A program made the translations under genes and the position numbers. DNA of 64,000 nt. Source: Thermoanaerobaculum sp. (lineage in GTDB: Bacteria; Acidobacteriota; Thermoanaerobaculia; Multivoradales; UBA5704). The first letter of the stretch is position 1, and each line of letters begins with the position of its first letter. Below, one piece after another: positions 1 to 12,746 of the stretch. The DNA lies in contig JAJKHS010000055.1 of the NCBI GenBank assembly GCA_021154885.1, positions 1,559 to 65,558 of the forward strand, given 5' to 3'. A model generated the notes under the pieces. The model was not told the origin of the DNA. It did no database searches and was given only the letters and a program-made list of their open reading frames with translations.

Positions 1-709
1 GAAGCAACTCCTTGATGCCCTCTTGGAGGATGATCGTTTGTCCGCATCCGACCTTGACTCTGTCCTGAGGGAACTTGAGGAAGGTCAATATCTGGACTAC
101 AAGGATGGACGGATAACCCATAGGAGTTCCCTTCCATATGAACTGGAAGGTGCCAGCTCTGACTCACCCTCATGGCTTCTCCACAAGGTGCTAGCCTCGC
201 GGTGTACGCTGCTGGCCAGGATCGTCGATCTATCTGAAGCCGCGCATTTGCTTTTGGCTGAGCATCCTGTAGGGGCTGCGATCCTGGCGCGATCGGTTCT
301 AGAGACCACTTCCGTGCTCGTAAAGCTACAAGAAGTAATTTCAGAGTTTTCTCCTCAAGGCAAGGAGACCGAACTCGAAGAGGCAGTAGAAAAGTTGCTG
401 CTTGGAAGCCGACGCACAGGTACTACGGTGGAGGCTACTAATATTTTAAGTCAGATCGACCGTATGGTTAAATTGTTCAACGAGACGCAGTTGCGAGATA
501 TGTATGATGAGCTTAGCGAAATTTCTCATCCCAATGCAGCGGGCGTAATCGTGTCGTATGGCCGCTTGGATAAGGATGCTTCTTCTCTGAAGATTGGGAC
601 GGACGAATCTAATAGGCCAGCCGAAATCGCGGTTGTCGTGATTGCCATCGCACTTAGAATCAGTCTGCTGTCGGGGGCAAAAATTGACTCGGCCCTTCGA
701 CCGCTATGA
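1..709 (+). CDS. hypothetical protein, 5' end outside window (ORF open to position 1; track start is a TTG at 23); markedly lower GC than rest of window
   Basis: Open frame continues upstream to window edge; local GC visibly ~45-50% vs ~68% elsewhere; no recognisable motifs. Confidence 0.35.
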   Translation, partial: KQLLDALLEDDRLSASDLDSVLRELEEGQYLDYKDGRITHRSSLPYELEGASSDSPSWLLHKVLASRCTLLARIVDLSEAAHLLLAEHPVGAAILARSVLETTSVLVKLQEVISEFSPQGKETELEEAVEKLLLGSRRTGTTVEATNILSQIDRMVKLFNETQLRDMYDELSEISHPNAAGVIVSYGRLDKDASSLKIGTDESNRPAEIAVVVIAIALRISLLSGAKIDSALRPL

Positions 710-1009: not shown

Positions 1010-1540
1010 ATGCGTTTCCTCTTCATTCTTTTAAGCCTTGCATTCCTCGCAGTTCCCTCGATGGCCGTCGACGACTGGGCAAGCTGCCAGAGTGCCCTTG
1101 AGAACGTCAAGTCACAGTCGTCTCGGGCTGTAGACGCCGCTTCGGAGGCCGAGAATGCGGCTGGGACGTTGAACGAAGCAAGGGACGACCTGCGCGACTG
1201 CAGAACCTATCCCGATGTCTACGACCTAATGGGCGACCATTGCAGATCGAAGCAGTGGGACGTCGATTCTGCGAAGAGCAGTCTAGACTCGGCCCAAGAG
1301 GAGGTTCAGTCACAGCTCCGCAGGCTCAGAAGCGCTCTCGCAGATGCCGCCTTTCAGTGCGAGTTCGACTTATCGGTACCGCAGCCGCTCAGCACCGCCC
1401 CTCGCCCGACCCAATGCGAGCGGCTACGCGCCCTCCGAGGACAGCTTAGCCAGCAGTTGATTTCGGACTACTGCAGGACGCTGATGTCTGTTGAACAATG
1501 CAAGGCCTGTCTGCGTTTTCCGGGCGAAAGCGACCACTGA
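1010..1540 (+). CDS. secreted Cys-rich hypothetical protein
   Basis: N-terminal signal peptide MRFLFILLSLAFLAVPSMA; 8 Cys; no recognisable domain. Confidence 0.4.
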   Translation: MRFLFILLSLAFLAVPSMAVDDWASCQSALENVKSQSSRAVDAASEAENAAGTLNEARDDLRDCRTYPDVYDLMGDHCRSKQWDVDSAKSSLDSAQEEVQSQLRRLRSALADAAFQCEFDLSVPQPLSTAPRPTQCERLRALRGQLSQQLISDYCRTLMSVEQCKACLRFPGESDH

Positions 1541-1549
1541 TTCCGAGGG

Positions 1550-2960
1550 AAGGCGGCCACCCATTCCAGGCTGAAGGCGGCCACTTTTTCCGGTTCGTCG
1601 GAATGGGTGGTCGGAATCGCCTGGAACAGGTGGTCGCCTTGGATCGGAATCCAGTCGACGGACAGCGTTGACGACTCGCGGTGGCTCTTAGCTCTGGCAT
1701 CCTGGCTCCCCTTCAACAGGGGAGCCAGATGCCAGCATGGAGAATCAGCGTGAGGAAGATACGAGAGATTTTGCGACTGTCCTCGGAGAGTCGCTTGAGC
1801 CGGCGCCAGATCGCCAGCTGTTGCGGGATCAGCAAGACGACGGTAGGAGAGTGCCTGGAGCGAGCCCGACGGATGGGTCTGGACTGGTCCACGGCGTTGG
1901 GGCTGAGCGACGAGGAGTTGGAGCGGCGGCTCTACCCGCCGGCGGTTCCGGTGCCGGTCTCGGAGCGTCCGCCGGTGGACTGGGGTGGGGTGCATACGGA
2001 GCTGAAGAAGAAGGGGGTGACGCTGCAGTTGCTGTGAGAGGAGTACCGCGAGAAGGAGCCTCGCGGCTATGGCTATAGCCGCTACTGCGAGCTGTACAGC
2101 CAGTGGCGGAGGCGGTCGGACCTGTCAATGCGCCAGGTGCACCGGGCCGGTGAGAAGCTGTTCGTCGACTACTGCGGGTCGACGATTCCGGTGACGGACG
2201 CCCCTAGCGGTGAAGTGCGCGCGGCGCAGATCTTCGTGGCGGTGTGGGGGGCGAGCAACTACACCTATGCGGAGGCGACGTGGAGCCAGGGACTTTCGGA
2301 CTGGATCGAGTCGCACGTGCGCGCCTTTGAGTTCGCCGGCGGCCTGCCGGAGATGGTGGTGCCGGACAACCTGAAGTCGGGGGTCAGCCGGCCGTGCCGG
2401 TACGAGCCGGAGCTGAACCCGACCTACCAGGAGCTGGCGATGCACTACGGGGTGGCGGTGATGCCGGCGCGGGTGCGAAGGCCGCGCGACAAGGCCAAGG
2501 TCGAGGTGGCGGTCCAGGTGGTGGAACGGTGGATTCTGGCGCGGCTGCGTCATCGGCGCTTCTTTTCGCTGGCCGAGCTGAACCAGGCCCTCGGCGAGCT
2601 GCTGGTGCGGTTGAACGAGCGGCCCTTCCATAAGCTGCCGGGCTCGCGTCGGTCGTTATTCGAGAGCTTGGAGCGACCGGTGCTGCGCGCGTTGCCTTCA
2701 CAGCGCTTTCTCTACGCGGAGTGGAAGAAGGCGCGGGTGGGAATCGACTACCACGTCGAGGTCGACGGCCACTAATACAGCGTGCCCTACCAGTCTGGTG
2801 AGCCAGCAACTGGACTTGCGGGTGACGGCCCAAACGGTGGAGTGCTTCACCCAGAGCCGGCGCGTCGCCAGCCACGTGCGCAGCTTTCGCCGGGGAGCCC
2901 ACACGACGCAGAGCGAGCACATGCCCCGAGCGCACCGCGGCCGCCAGCCTTTTCCAAGCG
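1550..2960 (+). mobile_element. IS21-family insertion sequence remnant (left-end repeat region + degraded istA; istB absent)
   Basis: Short direct repeats (aaggcggccac x2, ggtggtcg x2) just upstream of istA start resemble IS21 multi-repeat left end; istA homology stops near 2945; no istB ATPase follows. Confidence 0.6.
1729..2945 (+). pseudogene. istA: IS21 transposase IstA pseudogene: in-frame TGA (2035-2037, replaces conserved Trp in LLWEEYRE), TAA (2773-2775, replaces Tyr in HYYSVPYQ), +1 frameshift near 2794, 3' truncated
   Basis: N-terminal HTH (MPAWRISVRKIREILRL...TTVGECLERARRMGL), DDE core (KLFVDYCG...[10 protein letters not shown]), then YSVPYQ../SQQLDLRVTAQTVECF..HMPRAHR in shifted frame; classic IstA blocks interrupted as listed. 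Confidence 0.8.
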
Positions 2961-3245
2961 GCCCCCAGGATGAGCGATGCCTTTTTCAGGCCGGTCTGGA
3001 GATCACCTGCGGGAAGGGGATCGTAGCCCGCCCCAATCGCGCGGACGGCGGCGCGGCCGACTGGGATGCCCGGGTGGCCGATCTCCAGTTCCGCGACCGC
3101 TGCGAGTATGCGGTGGGACACGGCGTCTCCGTGGCCGCCGATCTGCCAGAGGACGGCGGACCGGTCACGACGGTACGGACGGCCTGGATTCCCTGCGCCG
3201 AGGTGCCCCGGGTGATCACGGGTCCGGCGGTAGGAATCACGAATA

Positions 3246-5743
3246 TGGAAGAGCTGGCCGGGCTGGAGAATCCCGAGGATCTCCGCCGGGCCCTGGAGCC
3301 GATTCCCGCCGCCTACGGCGCCTGGATCGCGGGGCGGCGCGAAATCGATCCCGGAAGCGATGCCAGCCGGCGAGCCACCCGCGACGAGCTGATGGACGAA
3401 GCCGGGCGGGCCTGCCGGCGCATCGGTGACGGCATCGATCTCCTCGCACGGAGCGCCGAGGTGCGCCACGCCTTCCGGCTGGCCAACCGGGCCATGGCAC
3501 TGTCGGCGCGGAAGCGCAGCCCGGAGCGCTACGCGGACGGCTCGGCGCCCCACTGGTTTCTGTTTCAGCTCGCTTTTCTCCTGCTCAACCTGCCGGCCCT
3601 GGACGATCCGCGCCGGGAGGACCGGGACGACGTGGAGCTGATCTTCTTTCCCACGGGTGGCGGCAAGACGGAGGCCTACCTGGGCGTCATCGCCTTCGTG
3701 CTATTGCTGCGCCGCATGCGGGGCCAGCAGCGGCCGGACGCCGGCCTCGGCGTGGCCGTCATGCTGCGCTACACCCTGCGGCTGCTGACGCTCGATCAGC
3801 TCTCTCGGGCGGCGACGCTGGTCTGCGCCCTGGAGGTTCTGCGGCGGGAGGACCCGGCCCGCCTGGGCACCGTGCGCTTCGCCGCCGGCCTCTGGGTGGG
3901 CGGAAGCGCCACGCCCAACAAGCTGGAGGATGCAAAGACGCAGATTCTCGACTACAAGAACAGCTCCTCGGCCCGGTTCCCGAGCCCCTTTCCCTTGACG
4001 GTCTGCCCCTGGTGCTCGGAGCCGCTGGGCCGGGACAGCCTGACCCTGGAGCCGCGCGAGACGCCGCGACAGGTGATCGTGGGCTGCGGCAATCACCTCT
4101 GCGACTTCGCTCCCGGCCGCTTCCCCGAGGGCCTGCCGGTGCTCTTCGTGGACGAGCAGATCTATCGCGAGCTGCCGGCGTTCCTGATCGCCACGGTGGA
4201 CAAGCTCGCCATGCTCCCCTGGCGCGGCGAGGTCGGGCTGCTCTTCGGCCGTGCCCTCGCCCGCGACGGCCGGAGTCTGTATGGACCGGTGGACGCCGCG
4301 CTCGGCATGATTCCGCGCAGCGCCCGGACGGCCCTTCCGGAGGGCCTCCTGCCGCCGGAGCTGATCGTGCAGGACGAGCTTCACCTCATCTCCGGCCCCC
4401 TCGGCACCATGACCGGCCTCTATGAAACGGCGGTGGAGGCGCTCTGCCTGCGCACGCTGGAGGACGGTACGGTGGTGCGGCCCAAGATTCTGGCTTCGAC
4501 CGCCACGGTGCGGCGGGCGCGGGAGCAGATCCTCTCCCTCTTCGGGCGCGACAGGACGGCGATCTTTCCGCCGCCCGGTGTGGACGACGGCGAGACCTGG
4601 TTCGCCCGCGTCGATCACGACTCGCCCGGCCGGCTCTACGTGGGGGTCGCCGCCACGGGCCGCGCCATGAAGGCCATTCTGCTGCGCGTCTACGTCGCGC
4701 TGCTCGCCGCCGCGAACGCGCTCTACGATCCCACGGGACCGGAGGACCAGACTTCGGACGCTTGGATGACCCTGGTGGGCTATTTCAACAGTCTGCGCGA
4801 GCTCGGAGGGATGCGGCGGCTGGTGGAGGACGAGGTCCGCACCCGCTGCGACAAGGCCGAGGACCGCCGGCCGGAGGGCTCGGCGGGGCCGAATCCCTGG
4901 TTCCGCGACCGCAAGGTGACGCCCGAGCCCCTGGAGCTGACGAGCCGCGAGGACGTGGGGAGCGTCAAGAGCGCCAAGGCCCGCCTTGCTCACCCCTTCC
5001 GCCATGCCGAGCACGTGGATGTCGTGCTGGCGAGCAACATGATCTCCGTCGGGCTGGACATCGACCGCCTGGGCCTGATGGTCGTCGCCGGGCAACCGAA
5101 GTCGACGAGCGAGTACATTCAGGCCTCCAGCCGGGTAGGCCGGCAACGCGACCGGCCGGGGCTGGTCGTCACCTGCTTCAATCTGCACAAGCCGCGCGAC
5201 CGCTCTCACTACGAGCGGTTTCCGGCGTATCACGAGAGCTTCTACCGCTTCGTGGAGGTGTCGAGCCTGACGCCGTTCTCGGGTCCGGCGCTCGACCGGG
5301 GCCTCGCCGGCACCCTGCTCGCCATGGCGCGGCAGAACGATCCCACGCTCACACCGTCCACCGCGGCCATGCACATCCGCGAGCACCTCGATCTGGCCGG
5401 CGAGGCGGTGCGCGGCCTGGCCGAGAGGGGCGCCAGCCAGCCCGGCCTCACGCCGGGGCAGAGCGATGCCGTGAGAGCCAACCTGACCCTGCGCGCTCAA
5501 GGCCTGGTGGACGCGTGGGAGCGGCTGGCGCAAATCGCGACGGAAGGCGGCTACCGGCGGGTCTACTCGCCGTGGGACCGTGGCAAGTCCGCGGCGGACC
5601 GCACGATGCTGCGCCAGGTGCTCGACCGGCCGGAGGACCAGGCGCCACCGGAGGCGAAGCTGTTCACGGCACCCACCTCCATGCGGGAGGTGGAGCCCTC
5701 CACGCACCTCTGGCTGCGCAGCCGGCTGGGAGGAAAAGGCTGA
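3246..5743 (+). CDS. SF2 DExH helicase with internal zinc ribbon; DISARM DrmA-like (start uncertain, may have lost N-terminus to the IS21 insertion)
   Basis: Motif I FFPTGGGKTEAYLG, Ia/Ib region, motif II VQDELHLISG (DELH), motif III KILASTATV, motif VI QASSRVGRQ; CPWC..x..CGNHLC zinc ribbon between Ia and II; stop TGA overlaps ATG of next gene (TGATG). Confidence 0.6.
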
Positions 5744-7632
5744 TGGCCGGGCGTCCGCCGCGCCGGGGAGGCCCCGGTAACTCCAAGCCCGTCGCCTACC
5801 AGAAGCCGGCTGGCACCGTGCGGCGCAGCCAGGTGGTGCGCACCAACGGTCCCGGCGCCATGATCGATCTCGTGGACCACGCCGTGATGGTCGGCGGGCT
5901 CGACTTCTGGCGCTACGCTCCGCAGGACATTACGGCGTGCACCTTGTCCGAGCCCCGGCTGCGGGACCGGCTGGAGCCGCGCTTCGTCGAGGCGGGCCGC
6001 CGCCTCGCGCAGGAAGGATGCTTCCGGCTGCCGCCCCTGGGGGAAGAAAAGAAGGCGACGCCGGACTCGGGGATCGAAGTCCTCGAGCTGCCCCGGTGGT
6101 TCGTCTGCCAGAACCCGGCGTGCCGCGCCCTCGTCCACGCCGATGGATTGGCTCAAAGAGGGTCGCGCTACCGTCATGAGTGCATCCGGCCGAAAGGCTC
6201 AGAATCCGTGCCGGTGCGCTTCGTGGCCACCTGCCGGAGGGGGCACGTCGAGGAGTTCCCCTGGGTCTGGTTCGCGCACCGCAACGTCGAGGCGGTCTGC
6301 CCGGCTCCCAGCCTCAAGCTCCAGGAGGGCGCGACCGGCGACTTCTCCGAGATCCTCGTGAAGTGCGCCTGCGGCGCCCAGGAGAGGCTCTCGACGGCGC
6401 TGATTCCCAACTCGCTGCCGCACTGCGAGGGACACCGGCCGTGGCTGGGCGAGGCGGGGCGCGAGAGCTGCGAGGAGAAGCACCTGCGGCTCTTGGTGCG
6501 CAGCGCCAGCAACGCCTACTTCGGCCAGGAGGTGAGCGCTCTTTCCATTCCCGAGCGAGGCCGCAAGCTGGAGGCCGCGGCGCGGCAGGTGTGGCACATC
6601 CTCCAGGTGGCCGACGCCGCAAGCCTGCCGGCGTTTCGCAGCATCCCCCAGGTGAAAGACGCCCTGGGCACGGCCTCGGACGCCGACGTGCTGGCCGTCA
6701 TCGAGCAGATCCGGATTGGGGGCACGCCCGTGCGGGAGCCGTTGCGCACGGCGGAGTATCGCCAGCTCGTCGCCGTGGAGCGCGAGACCCCGGGCGAGCT
6801 GCCACCGGACGGCGGCGACTTCTTCGCCCGGGAGGCGACACCGGACGGCGGACCGATTCCCAAGATCGCGCGCCTGGTCCTCATCCCCAAGCTGCGGGAC
6901 GTGCGGGTGCAGATCGGCTTCACGCGGCTGGAGCCGGTCATGCCGGACCTGGAGGGAGAGTTCGACCTGGCCGTGCAGTCGGCACCGCTCTCCCTCACTC
7001 AGGACTGGCTGCCGGCCAGCGAGGTGCGCGGCGAGGGAGTGTTCATTCAGCTCGACGAGAAGGCGGTCTGGGATTGGGAGCGGCGGCCCGAGGTGCAGGC
7101 CCGGGAGCGCGAGCTGGCGGCGGGCTACCGCGACTGGCTCTCGACGCTGACGGGAGACAAAGCGCCGCCGTTCCCGGGCGTGCGCTTCTATCTCCTCCAC
7201 TCGTTGTCGCACCTGCTGCTGACGGCGATCTCTCTGGAATGCGGTTATGCGGCGAGCGCCATCCGGGAACGCATCTACTGCTCGCGGGCCGATAGCGATA
7301 CGCCCATGGCGGCGATCCTCCTCTCCACGGGCAGCCCGGGAACCGAGGGCACCCTGGGCGGCCTCGTAGAGCAAGGCCGCAACCTGCGCCGGCATCTGAG
7401 GAGAGCCTTGCGGCTGGGAGAGCTCTGCTCCAACGATCCGGTCTGCGCCGGCCACTCGCCGCAGAACGATCACTCGGAGAGATTCCTCGAAGGCGCCGCC
7501 TGTCACGGCTGCCTGTTCGTCGCCGAATCCTCCTGCGAGCGCTTCAACCGCTACCTCGACCGCTCCCTCGTGGTGCCAACCCTGGGGCATCCGCCGGAGC
7601 TGGCTTTCTTCGAGCAGCGCGAGGGTTCTTAG
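5743..7632 (+). CDS. DUF1998-domain protein (DISARM DrmB-like), Cys/Zn-ribbon rich
   Basis: C-terminal block FYLLHSLSHLLL...CSNDPVCAGH...GAACHGCLFVAESSCERFNRYLDRSLVV matches the conserved Cys signature of DUF1998; N-terminal half has several CxxC/CxH pairs; translationally coupled to upstream helicase. Confidence 0.65.
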   Translation: MAGRPPRRGGPGNSKPVAYQKPAGTVRRSQVVRTNGPGAMIDLVDHAVMVGGLDFWRYAPQDITACTLSEPRLRDRLEPRFVEAGRRLAQEGCFRLPPLGEEKKATPDSGIEVLELPRWFVCQNPACRALVHADGLAQRGSRYRHECIRPKGSESVPVRFVATCRRGHVEEFPWVWFAHRNVEAVCPAPSLKLQEGATGDFSEILVKCACGAQERLSTALIPNSLPHCEGHRPWLGEAGRESCEEKHLRLLVRSASNAYFGQEVSALSIPERGRKLEAAARQVWHILQVADAASLPAFRSIPQVKDALGTASDADVLAVIEQIRIGGTPVREPLRTAEYRQLVAVERETPGELPPDGGDFFAREATPDGGPIPKIARLVLIPKLRDVRVQIGFTRLEPVMPDLEGEFDLAVQSAPLSLTQDWLPASEVRGEGVFIQLDEKAVWDWERRPEVQARERELAAGYRDWLSTLTGDKAPPFPGVRFYLLHSLSHLLLTAISLECGYAASAIRERIYCSRADSDTPMAAILLSTGSPGTEGTLGGLVEQGRNLRRHLRRALRLGELCSNDPVCAGHSPQNDHSERFLEGAACHGCLFVAESSCERFNRYLDRSLVVPTLGHPPELAFFEQREGS

Positions 7633-7741
7633 AGTCCTGTGAAGGAAGGCGACACAAGGCGGGGCTGAAGCCCGCCTACGTCGGACTTGTCCCCCAACCA
7701 CACGAGACGGCCCCAATTGCTCCCCAGAGCGTCCCCAGCGC

Positions 7742-7767
7742 AAAAAAGCGGGCAGGGCCGCCTTTTG
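7742..7767. terminator. putative bidirectional rho-independent terminator (A6-GC hairpin-T4; on minus strand hairpin followed by T6) serving DUF1998 gene and tRNA-Phe
   Basis: caaaaaagcgggcagggccgccttttgcc; short GC stem, weak. Confidence 0.3.
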
Positions 7768-7803
7768 CCTACCGCGCCAAACTATTGATTTTAGAGGGTT
7801 TAT

Positions 7804-7879
7804 TGGTGCCCAGGACCGGAATCGAACCAGTGACACCGTGATTTTCAGTCACGTGCTCTACCAACTGAGCTACCTGGGC
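7804..7879 (-). tRNA. tRNA-Phe (anticodon GAA)
   Basis: Reverse complement GCCCAGGTAGCTCAGTTGGTAGAGCACGTGACTGAAAATCACGGTGTCACTGGTTCGATTCCGGTCCTGGGCACCA folds as cloverleaf: 7-bp acceptor, D loop AGTTGGTA, anticodon loop CTGAAAA, T loop TTCGATT, discriminator A, encoded CCA. Confidence 0.92.
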
Positions 7880-8030
7880 ACAGGGAGCCTGGCGGCTCCG
7901 AGGGAGGGAGAGTATCCCAGAGGGGCGGGAGCGTAGTCAAGGGGAGAGGACTGAAGGCAGAACGGAGGCCGGCTAGGGCCGGCTTCCGCGGCCGGCGGGA
8001 CGCCGGCGGTCCCAGGGGAGGGGTGCGGAG

Positions 8031-8340: not shown

Positions 8341-9111
8341 ATGCACCCTAGATTATATACCCGGCTCGCAATAAGCCTGATCTTCCTCGGCGGCCCCCCT
8401 GCCTCCGCCTGGACGCCGGCCACCCAGGTGACCATCGCCCGCGAGGCCGCCCGACTCTCCCCTCCCGATCTCTATCGCCAGATCGACAAGCACCACCGCG
8501 CCTATGCGGAGGGGGTCAACGCCCCGTTCGCGGACACGGACGCCAGTCGCCACGCGAAGAACCCCGACGGCTCGGGCCGCCTCGATCGCGCCGCCTTCGA
8601 CGCCGTGGACGCCGCCATCCTGGCCATCCGCGGCCATCAGCCGTTCGACGAGATCGTCCGCCGCCTGGGGGTGGTCTCCCACTTCGTGGCCGACGCCAAC
8701 AATCCCCTCGCCTCTTCGGCCGCGGACCCCGACGAGGGGCGCTATTTTGCCGACTATCTCCGCTACGTGGAGACCGCCCAGCCCCGGTTCCCCCTGGTCT
8801 TCTATGGTCTCCAGCCAGCCGCGGACGGACGTGGCATCTCCTCCATCCTCGACGCCGCACTGCGCCGGGGACGCCAGCTCTACCCGATGATCGGCCGCGA
8901 GTACCGGCGGATCGGTTTCGGGTCGGCAGTCGGGGTGTTCGATGACCGCTCGACCGCCTTCGGGGTGGGCTCTATCGCCTTCAGCCACGCCGTGACGGAC
9001 GTCACCCTGGTGCTGCGCTATATTTGGCTCGCGGCGGGCGGCATCGACGATCGCGCCAATCTGCCGGCCGGCGGGACGCGGTTGACGGTGCTGCCCCGGA
9101 CGGCCCGCTAA
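8341..9111 (+). CDS. secreted hypothetical protein; possible zinc-dependent PLC / P1-nuclease-like fold (weak)
   Basis: Signal peptide ...LGGPPASA; mature N-terminal Trp; HFVADANNPL resembles H-x-x-x-D-x-x-x-P-L metal site of PLC/S1-P1 family; speculative. Confidence 0.4.
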   Translation: MHPRLYTRLAISLIFLGGPPASAWTPATQVTIAREAARLSPPDLYRQIDKHHRAYAEGVNAPFADTDASRHAKNPDGSGRLDRAAFDAVDAAILAIRGHQPFDEIVRRLGVVSHFVADANNPLASSAADPDEGRYFADYLRYVETAQPRFPLVFYGLQPAADGRGISSILDAALRRGRQLYPMIGREYRRIGFGSAVGVFDDRSTAFGVGSIAFSHAVTDVTLVLRYIWLAAGGIDDRANLPAGGTRLTVLPRTAR

Positions 9112-9140
9112 GCCCTCACCACCCGAAGGAGAGATCACGA

Positions 9141-10697
<1,557 letters not shown>

Positions 10698-10725
10698 GCC
10701 CTCACCCCTGTCCCCTCTCCCATCG

Positions 10726-10796
10726 CCCCCCCCGACCGGGAGAGGGGAACCCGGCTGAAGGGTTCTTGCCTTTCTCCCTCTTCTCCCGGTCGGGGG
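10726..10796. repeat. long GC-rich inverted repeat (16-20 bp stem, ~35 nt polypyrimidine loop) downstream of purH; terminator- or REP-like
   Basis: ccccccgaccgggaga (10727-10742) is exact reverse complement of tctcccggtcgggggg (10781-10796). Confidence 0.5.
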
Positions 10797-10893
10797 GAGT
10801 GCGGTGGGAGAAGAGGGCCGGGGTGATGAGGGTCTTGGTGGAAGCTTTCCCCTCCGCCCCCTGTTTGAAACGGACAGCATGGGAGACCCGACC

Positions 10894-11544
10894 ATGAAGC
10901 GAGCCATCCTTCTCCTTTCCACCCTCGGCCTCCTCGCGGGGGCGGGCCGGGCGGCGGCCCAGGAGGTCGATCCCTGGGCGGCGCTGAAGACGGTCCGCCA
11001 GAGCCTGGTGGATGCCGGGCCCACGGGCGCGAGCTTCGTCCAGACGTACATCCCGTCCGGGTTCTCGTCCGGCGAGAAGGAGTCGGGGAAGCTGGCCCTG
11101 GCCCTGCCCGACTGCCTGCGGTGGGACTACACGGCGCCCTATCCCAAGAGCTTCCTGATCTGCGGCGGCGTGCTCCACGCCTGGAACGAGGAGGACAAGA
11201 CCGGCCGCCGCTACCGGGTGGACCGCAAGAACGAGCCCGGGCTCGACCTGCTCCTCCTGGGAGTGGACGAGCTCAAGGAGCGCTACCGCGCCAAGGGCCA
11301 GACGGTGGCCGGCGGGAAAGTCGAGATCGCCCTCTCACCCAAGGAGGCCAAGGGGGACAAGGCGAAGACGGCGGAGCTGACGGACGCGACGCTGACCGTC
11401 GATCCCGCCACCAGGCGGGTGACCGGCATCGCCTACCACGACCGCGAGGGGAACCTGACCCGCTTCGACATCGCCGACTACCAGGACCTCCCCCGGCAGG
11501 GCCGCTTCACGCCGCCGGCGGGGATCAAGTGGGAGGAGCAGTAG
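10894..11544 (+). CDS. periplasmic LolA-like (outer-membrane lipoprotein carrier fold) protein
   Basis: Signal peptide MKRAILLLSTLGLLAGAGRAAA; SFVQTY (F-x-Q LolA motif); size ~216 aa. Confidence 0.55.
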   Translation: MKRAILLLSTLGLLAGAGRAAAQEVDPWAALKTVRQSLVDAGPTGASFVQTYIPSGFSSGEKESGKLALALPDCLRWDYTAPYPKSFLICGGVLHAWNEEDKTGRRYRVDRKNEPGLDLLLLGVDELKERYRAKGQTVAGGKVEIALSPKEAKGDKAKTAELTDATLTVDPATRRVTGIAYHDREGNLTRFDIADYQDLPRQGRFTPPAGIKWEEQ

Positions 11545-11552
11545 GCCCCGGG

Positions 11553-11558
11553 TATAAT
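11553..11558 (+). promoter_or_regulatory. candidate -10 element (TATAAT) 30 nt upstream of yajQ start
   Basis: gggtataatgcc in an otherwise GC-rich intergenic gap. Confidence 0.25.
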
Positions 11559-11587
11559 GCCCCAGCCGGACCAGCCGGGGAAAGATT

Positions 11588-12088
11588 ATGGCCGCCGCCG
11601 AGAACTCGTTCGACATCGTCTCCACCGTGGACCTCCAGGAGGTCCGCAACGCCGTGCAGCAGGCGGAGAAGGAGATCGCGAACCGCTATGACCTAAAGAA
11701 GGCGGCGGCGGTGCTGCGCTTGGAGGGGGAGGAGATCGTGCTGGAGGCCGCGGACGACTTCTCGGTCCAGCAGGCGCTCGACGTGCTGCAGTCGAAGCTG
11801 GTCAAGCGCAGCGTCAACCTCAAGTCGCTGCGCTATGGCAAGGTCGAGCCGGCGAGCGGCAGCCGCGCCCGGCAACGGATCACCCTGCAGCAGGGCATCC
11901 CCATCGAGACGGCCAAGAAGATCGTCGCCGAGATCAAGACCAGGAAGCTCAAGGTGCAAGCCGCCATCCAGGGGGACACGGTGCGCGTCTCCGGCAAGAA
12001 CCGCGACGACCTGCAGACGGTCATCGCGGCACTCAAGGCCCTGGACCTCGACATCCCCCTGACCTTTTCCAACTATCGCTCCCAGTGA
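11588..12088 (+). CDS. yajQ: YajQ-family (UPF0234) nucleotide/c-di-GMP-binding protein
   Basis: SFDIVSTVDLQEVRNAVQQAEKEIANRYD.. matches YajQ N-terminus; 166 aa. Confidence 0.8.
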   Translation: MAAAENSFDIVSTVDLQEVRNAVQQAEKEIANRYDLKKAAAVLRLEGEEIVLEAADDFSVQQALDVLQSKLVKRSVNLKSLRYGKVEPASGSRARQRITLQQGIPIETAKKIVAEIKTRKLKVQAAIQGDTVRVSGKNRDDLQTVIAALKALDLDIPLTFSNYRSQ

Positions 12089-12098
12089 AGAAGCCCGT

Positions 12099-12746
12099 AT
12101 GCCAATCCCAAGAAGGTTCCTGCCGGTCCTGCTCGCCCTGGCTTGCCTGTCCGCCGTGCCCGCAAGAGCGGCGCGCTACGAAGACGGCCAGCGCATCCAG
12201 GTCACCGGCGTCGTGCTCGACGCTCAGGGGCAGCCGCTCTCCGGCGTGCGGGTGGTGTTCGAGGGCAGCCGCACCTATTTCAGCCTCCGTGAGCTGCACC
12301 GGACGGCGGACAAGGACGTCCGGCGGGTGAGCGCCACCACCGACGCCGCGGGCCAGTACACCATCACCTGGCCCTGGGACAGCTACTTCAACCACTTCGA
12401 GGTGGCGGTCGGCGTGCCGGTGCGGGTCAAGACGGGCGAGCGGCTGGAGGAGCTGGCGCGCCAGGACGTCACCCGCCGGGTGCTCGCGGGCAGTCCGGCG
12501 GTGGTGGCCATGACGGTCGAGAACCGCCAGTTCATCGACCATCTCCGGGAGCTCCTGGCCTCGATCAAGACGGACGACCAGCGCCGGGTGTACGAGGAGA
12601 TGGGCAAGCCCGACCGGGTCCGCAACGTCCAGTATCCCGGCTACTTGGAGTCGTCCTGGTGGTACTTCGAGAGCGGCAAGGTCTACCGTTTCCGCGATGG
12701 GCGACTGGAGCAGGTGGTACCCTTCGATCCGGTGCGCGGCCTTTGA
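12099..12746 (+). CDS. secreted hypothetical protein with carboxypeptidase-regulatory-like beta domain
   Basis: Signal peptide; VTGVVLDAQGQPLSGVRVVF resembles CarbopepD_reg domain. Confidence 0.45.
   Translation: MPIPRRFLPVLLALACLSAVPARAARYEDGQRIQVTGVVLDAQGQPLSGVRVVFEGSRTYFSLRELHRTADKDVRRVSATTDAAGQYTITWPWDSYFNHFEVAVGVPVRVKTGERLEELARQDVTRRVLAGSPAVVAMTVENRQFIDHLRELLASIKTDDQRRVYEEMGKPDRVRNVQYPGYLESSWWYFESGKVYRFRDGRLEQVVPFDPVRGL

What the first reader, a model, noticed from the sequence alone, without database searches (positions are those of the whole stretch)
3246..7632. Coupled SF2 helicase + DUF1998 gene pair (DISARM DrmA/DrmB-like core) with no nuclease or methylase, wedged between a dead IS21 and tRNA-Phe
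Seen in sequence: an ~830-aa DExH helicase (motifs I PTGGGKTEAYL, II DELH, III SAT, VI QASSRVGRQ, plus a CPWC/CGNHLC zinc ribbon inserted in the RecA1 domain) whose stop overlaps (TGATG) the start of a 629-aa protein carrying the four-Cys DUF1998 signature (CSNDPVC...ACHGCLF...SCERFN). Established: helicase+DUF1998 as adjacent genes is the conserved core (drmA-drmB) of DISARM, where it is always accompanied by a PLD nuclease (drmC) and a DNA methyltransferase; DUF1998 also occurs fused in Druantia DruE and in MrfA/Lhr repair helicases. Here nothing resembling drmC or a methylase follows: the next feature 170 bp downstream is tRNA-Phe (a classic island integration site), and the upstream side is a multiply-mutated IS21 istA remnant next to a low-GC patch. 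Inference: either a minimal two-gene helicase-DUF1998 defence module that works without a cognate methylase (undescribed as such), or a DISARM operon gutted by IS activity. The helicase N-terminus (2946-3245 has open frame but no start) may itself have been clipped by the IS.
Basis: partly seen in the sequence, partly recalled or inferred. Interest (0 to 1): 0.75.

Follow-up and report, generated by a model that had tools for sequence, protein, structure and literature searches.

The report
Truncated remnant of a DISARM defence operon
The gene pair is a real DISARM DrmA/DrmB pair, but it is what remains of an ordinary four-gene class 1 DISARM anti-phage operon after a deletion, running from inside a dead IS21 element, removed the SNF2 helicase gene, the methylase gene and the first ~189 codons of drmA.

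Summary
Window 2939-5743 encodes DrmA and 5743-7632 encodes DrmB. NCBIfam DISARM_DrmAS scores 1008 bits and DrmB_fam 523 bits. PDB 7S9V chains A and B match at 8.5e-167 and 5.5e-92.

DrmA is incomplete. It matches only positions 210-1165 of the 1165-position model. All five relatives tested by blastn lose homology at the same base, 2938/2939. There drmA joins codon 403 of a decayed IS21 istA, which carries two nonsense codons and one frameshift.

A relative 94% identical in DNA (L001) and seven more distant ones all carry a full-length drmA and an upstream drmMI of about 1,325 aa (one 866). Seven drmA genes are intact at 1117-1148 aa; L001's has a 1-nt deletion. drmD was seen in four relatives. 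drmC follows drmB in only one of seven, so its absence here is normal for this clade.

No DrmD, DrmMI or DrmC homologue exists anywhere in the 64 kb. The lost DrmA segment includes the counterpart of the Serratia autoinhibitory trigger loop and about 100 residues of the adjoining domain.

The remaining 4.7 kb has no stop or frameshift and shows no relaxed constraint. I read that as a recent deletion, but retained function is not excluded. This is a degraded copy of a known system and of low interest.

The parts
1..709 (+). Context: 3' part of a low-GC ORF that runs off the window start. It has only a weak DUF5677 similarity, below the Pfam cutoff, and no PADLOC hit.
1010..1540 (+). Context: 176-aa Cys-rich ORF with a signal-peptide-like N-terminus (my reading of the sequence), in the low-GC patch. 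Its last ~9 codons and its stop lie inside the IS21 left end, so the IS appears to have inserted into its 3' end.
1512..1728 (+). IS21-family left end (TGCGTTTTCC...) with subterminal GAAGGCGRCCAC repeats. One repeat unit of ~26 bp is missing relative to intact copies L011-L013.
   Evidence: alignment with three intact IS copies
1729..2938 (+). istA' pseudogene: codons 1-403 of a 518-codon IstA, 92% identical to intact P0121. It carries TGG>TGA at 2035-2037, TAC>TAA at 2773-2775 and a 1-nt insertion near 2796. The last ~115 codons, istB and the right end are missing. Branch substitutions are 17 S / 20 N, against 21 S / 9 N for the intact sister.
2937..2939 (.). Deletion junction: istA '...EHMPRAHR' joined to drmA 'GRQPFPSGPQDERC...'. 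There is about 2 bp (CG) of microhomology. Homology to all five relatives tested by blastn begins here.
2939..5743 (+). drmA', 934 codons plus stop. It is equivalent to residues ~190-1122 of the full-length short-form DrmA and to ~335-1325 of Serratia DrmA. All helicase motifs, the RecA1 zinc-binding cysteines and the C-terminal 'SMREVEP' segment aligned to Serratia V1296 are retained. The N-terminal segment, the trigger-loop counterpart and about 100 residues of the next domain are missing.
2798..2938 (+). In-frame istA-derived leader of the 981-codon chimeric ORF, with GTG 2798 as its first possible start. No SD-like sequence lies upstream.
3245..3247 (+). First in-frame ATG within DrmA sequence. 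It is an internal Met of the native protein. A weak AGGA lies 8-11 nt upstream. Starting here would give 832 aa.
5743..7632 (+). drmB, full length (629 aa). DrmB_fam covers positions 2-604 of 604, and MZB/DUF1998 covers residues 488-591. The start overlaps the drmA stop by 1 nt, and a GGGAGGA Shine-Dalgarno sequence lies upstream. There is no rate acceleration relative to 10 sister sequences.
7633..7803 (.). 171-bp spacer. It holds a GC-rich hairpin (~7657-7677) after drmB and a stem plus T-run on the minus strand (~7741-7770) that looks like the tRNA-Phe terminator. There is no coding remnant. Homology to relatives' DISARM loci ends at ~7613.
   Evidence: direct reading of the sequence
7804..7879 (-). 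tRNA-Phe(GAA), with its 3' end facing drmB. A sigma-70-like promoter lies at 7940-7911. Housekeeping genes (TusA, PurH, LolA, YajQ) follow on the other side.

Best explanation
This is the 3' remnant of a class 1 DISARM operon of the drmC-less type found in Acidobacteriota (drmD - drmMI - drmA - drmB).

Inferred history:
1. An IS21-family element sat upstream, inserted in low-GC island DNA, and decayed.
2. An illegitimate deletion followed, with about 2 bp of microhomology.
3. That deletion removed the 3' quarter of istA, istB, drmD, drmMI and the first ~189 codons of drmA. By comparison with L001 this is at least ~10 kb.
4. The two broken genes were joined in frame.

What the parent system does is established for Serratia class 1 DISARM. 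DrmMI marks host DNA. DrmA-DrmB is an SF2 helicase complex that loads on ssDNA with a 5' overhang once its autoinhibitory trigger loop is displaced. DrmD and the methylases enhance defence.

The remnant lacks the methylase, the SNF2 partner, the native promoter and start codon of drmA, the trigger-loop counterpart and part of the adjoining domain. I infer that it no longer provides DISARM-type immunity and is a young pseudo-operon that has not yet accumulated disabling mutations.

Shown: the identity of the genes, the truncation, the breakpoint, the loss of the partner genes, and the intact architecture in relatives. Inferred: the order of events, the size of the deletion and the loss of function.
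For: - Identity. NCBIfam DISARM_DrmAS (equivalog) scores 1008 bits but covers only profile positions 210-1165 of 1165. DrmB_fam scores 523 bits over 2-604 of 604. PADLOC DrmA gives 1e-252 and DrmB 1.5e-71. PDB 7s9v_A gives 8.5e-167 and 7s9v_B 5.5e-92.
- Breakpoint. L001 is 94% identical in DNA to window 2938-5903 and unrelated upstream of that. L007-L010 also start matching at 2938/2939.
- What is missing. L001 upstream carries the rest of drmA (189 codons). It also carries DrmMI (PADLOC 1257 bits) and DrmD (NCBIfam equivalog 679 bits, above the cutoff of 610; PADLOC 644 bits).
- Relatives. All eight have a full-length drmA: seven intact at 1117-1148 aa, and L001's ~1122 codons carrying a 1-nt deletion. 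All eight have an upstream drmMI: seven of 1323-1375 aa, and L010's is 866 aa.
- Wider family. In the 1.84-billion-protein library, the top 150 DrmA representatives are mostly 1050-1350 aa. Their match starts at residue ~170-300.
- No DrmD, DrmMI or DrmC is found anywhere in the window.
- The IS remnant is decayed.
- The junction is reproduced in independent assemblies.
- No sigma-70-like promoter was found on the + strand between 1500 and 8000.
- Mapping. The breakpoint corresponds to Serratia DrmA residue 334/335, so the counterpart of the trigger loop (176-232) is lost (PMC9142583).
Against: - The 4.7 kb of drmA'-drmB contains no stop or frameshift. The adjacent 1.2-kb istA' has three such lesions.
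- Substitutions on the window's own drmA branch are mostly synonymous (27 S / 9 N). That is no worse than the L001 branch (35 S / 16 N).
- DrmB shows no acceleration.
- These points fit a recent deletion, but they fit continued purifying selection equally well.
- In Serratia, DrmABC without methylases still protected against phage M13, and loss of the methylases caused no autoimmunity (bioRxiv 10.1101/2021.12.28.474362).
- The retained part keeps the catalytic motifs and the C-terminal region that wraps DrmB.
- A possible internal start (ATG 3245 with a weak SD) exists.
- Expression was not tested, and the promoter scan covers only sigma-70-type consensus sites.
Confidence: 0.85

Rival explanations
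1. The truncated pair is retained by selection as a methylase-independent two-gene helicase module. DrmA', translated from GTG 2798, ATG 2921 or ATG 3245 on read-through transcription from the IS, still binds DrmB and acts on invading DNA. Because it lacks the trigger-loop counterpart, it would do so without the normal DNA-structure filter.
For: - The two ORFs total 4.7 kb with no lesion, next to a 1.2-kb IS remnant with three.
- The window-branch ratio is 27 S / 9 N for drmA', against 17 S / 20 N for istA'.
- DrmB shows no rate acceleration.
- All helicase motifs, the zinc-binding cysteines, the V1296-equivalent segment and the DrmB-wrapping C-terminus are retained.
- Serratia DrmA lacking the trigger loop still co-purifies with DrmB and binds DNA more tightly (PMC9142583).
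- DrmABC alone protects against M13, and methylase loss is not autoimmune.
Against: - The cut is not at a domain boundary. It removes about 100 residues of the domain that follows the loop and leaves the rest of that domain.
- The native start, RBS and promoter are gone, and no sigma-70-like promoter was found.
- No coherent natural short DrmA class exists among 150 representatives.
- None of eight relatives has a drmAB-only locus.
- The S/N pattern is equally expected if the deletion is recent. My rough bound is that a neutral phase of up to ~10% of the branch would be undetectable.
- The IS may have died long before the deletion.
Confidence: 0.12
2. The junction is an assembly or binning chimera, and the organism really has an intact operon.
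For: The window comes from a metagenome-assembled genome, and IS elements often cause misassemblies.
Against: One NCBI contig and four independently assembled Logan runs are 100% identical. One spans 1052-7861 and another spans 2914-8017, covering the junction through to the tRNA. The junction lies inside unique sequence of both genes, not at an IS end.
Confidence: 0.01
3. The pair is a housekeeping MrfAB/YprA-type DNA-repair helicase, not a defence remnant.
For: It shares the YprA-family SF2 core and the MZB/DUF1998 domain.
Against: - The best matches are the DISARM-specific equivalog and subfamily models and Serratia DrmA/DrmB.
- The DUF1998 protein is a separate gene, which is the DISARM hallmark (bioRxiv 10.1101/2025.09.15.676423).
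- Relatives sit with drmMI and drmD in different genomic contexts, next to toxin-antitoxin, TIR and integrase genes.
- No MrfB-like exonuclease gene is present.
Confidence: 0.01

Closest known systems
Class 1 DISARM (Serratia sp. SCBI drmD-drmMI-drmA-drmB-drmC plus drmMII; DrmAB structures PDB 7S9V/7S9W)
   Same: DrmA' aligns to Serratia DrmA 368-1303 (E=8.5e-167), with helicase motifs I, II, III and VI and the RecA1 cysteine pairs conserved. DrmB aligns end to end (E=5.5e-92). The two genes overlap and are translationally coupled. Close relatives have the class 1 partners DrmD and DrmMI.
   Different: The family here is the short DrmA form (NCBIfam DrmAS, ~1120 aa). It begins at about Serratia residue 130, so it lacks most of the Serratia N-terminal region, called EVE-like by Bell et al. 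2025. The closest clade has no drmC. This copy has also lost drmD, drmMI and DrmA residues 1-189, including the trigger-loop counterpart.
Class 2 DISARM (Bacillus paralicheniformis drmE-drmA-drmB-drmC-drmMII)
   Same: It shares the DrmA/DrmB core.
   Different: NCBIfam assigns this DrmA to the DrmAS equivalog. Relatives carry an adenine-type Eco57I/MmeI-like DrmMI and an SNF2 DrmD, not a C5 methylase or DrmE.
MrfAB / YprA repair helicases, and Druantia DruE and ARMADA ArmC (other YprA-family members)
   Same: They share the SF2 YprA-type core and the zinc-binding MZB/DUF1998 module.
   Different: In those families the OB-CON-DUF1998 array is normally fused to the helicase. Here it is a separate gene, as in DISARM. 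Model scores place this pair in DISARM.

Membership tests
DISARM class 1 (complete system) | DrmA helicase, full length | tested here: not met
   NF038325 DISARM_DrmAS scores 1008 bits (cutoff 950), so family identity is met. Only profile positions 210-1165 of 1165 are covered, and 187-193 N-terminal residues present in relatives are absent.
DISARM class 1 (complete system) | DrmB (DUF1998/MZB protein) adjacent to drmA | tested here: met
   NF038324 DrmB_fam scores 523 bits over 2-604 of 604. PF09369 gives 1.3e-8. 7s9v_B gives 5.5e-92. Its start overlaps the drmA stop.
DISARM class 1 (complete system) | DrmMI N6-adenine methyltransferase in the operon | tested here: not met
   tblastn with DrmMI from L001 and L016 finds nothing in the 64-kb window. 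It is present upstream of drmA in all 8 relatives.
DISARM class 1 (complete system) | DrmD SNF2-like helicase in the operon | tested here: not met
   tblastn with DrmD from L001 and L016 finds nothing in the window. It is present in L001, L009, L010 and L016.
DISARM class 1 (complete system) | DrmC PLD nuclease after drmB (reported as dispensable) | tested here: not met
   The 171-bp spacer leads straight to tRNA-Phe, and there is no tblastn hit to L016 DrmC. It is also absent after drmB in 6 of 7 relatives, so this is not diagnostic of decay.
DISARM class 1 (complete system) | Anti-phage or anti-plasmid activity and host methylation | not testable with these tools
   This needs expression and plaque or conjugation assays, plus methylome sequencing.
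MrfAB / YprA repair module | Helicase fused to OB-CON-DUF1998, with a MrfB exonuclease partner and a conserved housekeeping context | tested here: not met
   The DUF1998 protein is a separate gene, no exonuclease gene is present, and relatives lie in variable defence-island contexts.
IS21 family element (intact) | Complete istA and istB between two terminal repeats | tested here: not met
   Only the left end and 403 of 518 istA codons remain, with two nonsense codons and one frameshift. There is no istB.

The most novel reading that the evidence does not exclude
The orphan drmA'-drmB pair has been kept by selection after the loss of drmD and drmMI. It would work as a minimal, methylation-independent helicase module without a trigger loop. 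That would show that the YprA-type core of DISARM can be exapted on its own.
Probability: 0.1. Interest if true: 0.5.

Novelty: already known. Interest (0 to 1): 0.15.

Why it matters
It matters mainly as a correction. A helicase+DUF1998 pair without a methylase should not be counted as a new minimal defence system, nor as a complete DISARM. Here it is a deletion remnant.

It is also a clean, base-resolved example of how a defence operon is dismantled in the wild. One illegitimate deletion removed the modification gene, the SNF2 gene and the regulatory N-terminus of the effector helicase together.

The comparison also shows that the Acidobacteriota clade of class 1 DISARM normally lacks drmC. 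Annotators should not take a missing drmC as a sign of decay.

If the remnant proved to be expressed and active, it would be a natural experiment on DrmAB without its trigger loop and methylase. I consider that unlikely.

Tried and rejected
- Natural short DrmA class. PADLOC model PDLC02575 is only 837 positions long and starts matching almost at the internal Met. That raised the idea of a natural ~830-aa DrmA. I rejected it. In the exhaustive search, 6914 proteins matched. The short proteins among the top 150 start at scattered positions and look like gene fragments. The bulk are 1050-1350 aa with about 200 or more residues before the breakpoint.
- Assembly chimera. Rejected, because five assemblies are identical.
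- Comparative scans. The genome-contig scan gave only one locus, L001. Two metagenome-contig scans found nothing. One used the tRNA-flank DNA pattern and one used DrmA' protein. I therefore could not find an empty site or an intact operon next to tRNA-Phe, and could not define the island's far end.
- Low-GC ORFs. A search of the relatives for homologues of the ORFs at 1-1540 found nothing. PADLOC also found nothing for them.
- Promoters. The scan found no + strand site upstream of drmA'. This is weak evidence, because only the sigma-70 consensus is covered.
- Dating the deletion from the IS decay. This was inconclusive, because the IS may have died before the deletion.
- Structure prediction was not run. 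It would not tell whether a truncated domain is stable.


Full report
**1. What is in the sequence**

The window has about 70% GC, except for a 55-58% GC patch at 1-1500. The helicase frame is open from 2798 to 5743, 981 codons. The next gene runs 5743-7632 (629 aa), and its ATG shares one base with the helicase TGA. tRNA-Phe(GAA) lies at 7804-7879 on the minus strand. The stated start of 3246 is one base off. The ATG is at 3245-3247 and is an internal methionine of the native protein.

**2. Identity of the two genes**

- The helicase matches NCBIfam NF038325 'DISARM system helicase DrmA' (DrmAS, equivalog) at 1008 bits, above the cutoff of 950. Only profile positions 210-1165 of 1165 are covered.
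- The second protein matches NF038324 DrmB_fam at 523 bits over positions 2-604 of 604. It also matches Pfam MZB/DUF1998.
- PADLOC gives DrmA at 1e-252 and DrmB at 1.5e-71.
- The only solved structures that match are Serratia DrmA and DrmB (7S9V/7S9W), at 8.5e-167 and 5.5e-92.

The DrmA/DrmB call is therefore correct, and the helicase lacks its N-terminus.

**3. The breakpoint**

The first 47 codons of the 981-codon ORF are IS21 IstA sequence (weak Mu-transpos_C_2 hit). They align with intact IstA proteins.

A Thermoanaerobaculia MAG contig, L001, is 94% identical in DNA to window 2938-5903 and unrelated before that point. Four more distant relatives (L007-L010, 76-82% DNA identity) also begin to match at 2938/2939 and stop at about 7613. 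The join reads istA '...EHMPRAHR' then drmA 'GRQPFPSGPQDERC...', with about 2 bp of shared sequence.

Relatives have 187-193 DrmA residues before this point.

The join is real. One NCBI contig and four independently assembled sequencing runs are 100% identical to the window, and one spans 1052-7861.

**4. What was lost**

In L001 the region upstream of the breakpoint holds four things:
- the remaining 189 codons of drmA;
- a 737-bp repeat-rich spacer;
- a 1323-aa DrmMI (PADLOC PDLC02643, 1257 bits);
- small ORFs and a DrmD (NCBIfam equivalog, 679 bits; PADLOC, 644 bits).

I examined eight relatives in all:

| Locus | DrmB identity to window | Architecture seen |
|---|---|---|
| L001 | contig ends inside drmB (drmA DNA 94%) | drmD - drmMI - drmA (1-nt deletion) - drmB (cut) |
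| L007-L010 | 78-82% | drmMI (~1325-1333 aa; 866 aa in L010) - drmA (1117-1127 aa) - drmB; SNF2 drmD visible in L009 and L010 |
| L014, L015 | 74%, 65% | drmMI - inserted genes - drmA (1140, 1148 aa) - drmB |
| L016 | 65% | drmD - drmMI - drmA - drmB - drmC (PLDc_2, 254 aa) |

L016 is the only one of the seven with visible downstream sequence in which a PLD gene follows drmB. tblastn with DrmD, DrmMI and DrmC from L001 and L016 finds nothing in the 64-kb window. The other large ORFs of the window are ordinary metabolic genes.

The absence of drmC is therefore normal for this clade. The absence of drmD, drmMI and the drmA 5' end is the result of a deletion. By comparison with L001 that deletion is at least ~10 kb, plus about 1.2 kb of IS21.

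**5. The IS21 remnant**

Alignment with three intact copies (L011-L013) places the left end at about 1512. It also shows one missing subterminal repeat unit. The remnant holds 403 of 518 istA codons and carries TGG>TGA, TAC>TAA and a 1-nt insertion. There is no istB.

On its own branch the remnant has 17 synonymous and 20 non-synonymous changes. The intact sister copy has 21 and 9. The remnant has therefore been evolving with relaxed constraint.

The IS end supplies the last codons of the low-GC ORF 1010-1540, so the IS inserted into island DNA and not into DISARM itself. Both partners of the join are cut internally. This is therefore an illegitimate deletion, not a simple insertion or recombination between two IS copies.

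**6. Which part of DrmA is missing**

I aligned a full-length relative with Serratia DrmA.
- The short form starts at about Serratia residue 136.
- Its acidic, low-complexity stretch (about residues 45-90) falls on the Serratia trigger loop (176-232).
- The breakpoint 'LFLVN|G' corresponds to Serratia residues 334/335.

Bravo et al. (PMC9142583) showed three things relevant here:
- The loop autoinhibits DrmAB and restricts binding to ssDNA and 5' overhangs.
- The main DrmB contacts come from the DrmA C-terminus and from DUF1998.

Bell et al. (bioRxiv 10.1101/2025.09.15.676423) describe the order EVE-like domain, trigger loop, jelly roll, NTR strand, helical domain, RecA1 with two zinc modules, RecA2, C-terminal helical domain.

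The remnant therefore lacks the N-terminal segment, the loop counterpart and about 100 residues of the jelly-roll region. It keeps the motor, the zinc modules, the 'SMREVEP' segment equivalent to V1296 and the DrmB-wrapping tail. The cut falls inside a domain, not at a domain boundary.

**7. Dead or alive?**

For function:
- There is no stop or frameshift in 4.7 kb.
- drmA' has 27 synonymous and 9 non-synonymous changes on the window branch. The L001 branch has 35 and 16.
- DrmB shows no acceleration against ten sisters.
- In Serratia, DrmABC without methylases protects against M13, and methylase loss causes no autoimmunity.

Against function:
- The promoter, start codon and RBS of drmA are lost, and no sigma-70-like site was found.
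- The cut is inside a domain.
- There is no coherent class of naturally short DrmA among the top 150 of 6914 homologues.
- None of eight relatives has a drmAB-only locus.

The substitution pattern cannot separate 'recent deletion' from 'selection'. By my rough estimate, a neutral phase of up to about 10% of the branch would be invisible and would be expected to produce at most about one disabling lesion. The contrast with the decayed IS is suggestive only, because the IS may have died before the deletion.

I commit to a recent, non-functional remnant. The remnant origin is close to certain. Loss of function I put at about 0.75-0.8.

**8. Context**

The tRNA-Phe 3' end faces drmB, and core genes (TusA, PurH, LolA, YajQ) follow on the other side. 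The DISARM remnant, the IS and the low-GC DNA therefore lie on the island side of the tRNA. The far end of the island is beyond the window. No tRNA lies within 10 kb of DISARM in five relatives scanned (L001, L007-L010), and their flanking genes all differ. The locus is thus a variable-island element, not a syntenic core gene pair.

**9. Verdict**

This is a degraded copy of a known system, so novelty is 'already known' and interest is low.

Noticed in passing
L001:8493-9220: In the closest relative, the drmMI-drmA spacer is 737 bp, against 38-65 bp in L007 and L009. It holds 5.5 tandem copies of a 42-bp unit (8506-8736), followed by shorter 21-bp repeats and a long GC-rich palindromic stretch (~8940-9130). 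It looks like an inserted repeat or MITE-like element. Its function is unknown.
   Followed up: partly
L001:11419 (= window 4574): The otherwise intact drmA of the closest relative has a 1-nt deletion in a CCC run, which splits it into two ORFs (9158-11515 and 11425-12588). This is either a real frameshift, meaning DISARM is decaying in that lineage too, or an assembly error. The window copy is intact at this site.
   Followed up: partly
L007:690-2480; L008:4928-6002; L014:4408-6513; L015:547-6484: The interval just upstream of drmA, or just upstream of drmMI in L007, repeatedly holds unrelated inserted genes. L007 has a DUF4276 + AAA_15/21 pair, which I recognise from memory as PARIS-like. 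L008 has an ArgR-like gene. L014 has a PemK toxin and DUF3368. L015 has a 1014-aa TIR protein. Toxin-antitoxin pairs follow drmB in L014 and L015. DISARM operons in this clade seem to act as landing pads for other defence genes.
   Followed up: no
window:1010-1540: This is a 176-aa Cys-rich ORF with a signal-peptide-like start, in the low-GC patch. Its last ~9 codons and its stop come from the IS21 left end, so the IS insertion replaced its native C-terminus. It has no Pfam or PADLOC hit.
   Followed up: partly
window:1512-1600: The IS21 left end lacks one subterminal repeat unit of ~26 bp that is present in three intact relatives (L011-L013). This is a further sign of decay of the element.
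   Followed up: yes
window:1-709: This low-GC ORF runs off the window start. It has only a sub-threshold DUF5677 similarity (E=8.6e-4, 19.9 bits against a cutoff of 27.1). The public NCBI contig ends 367 bp inside the window, so the rest of the island is not available.
   Followed up: no
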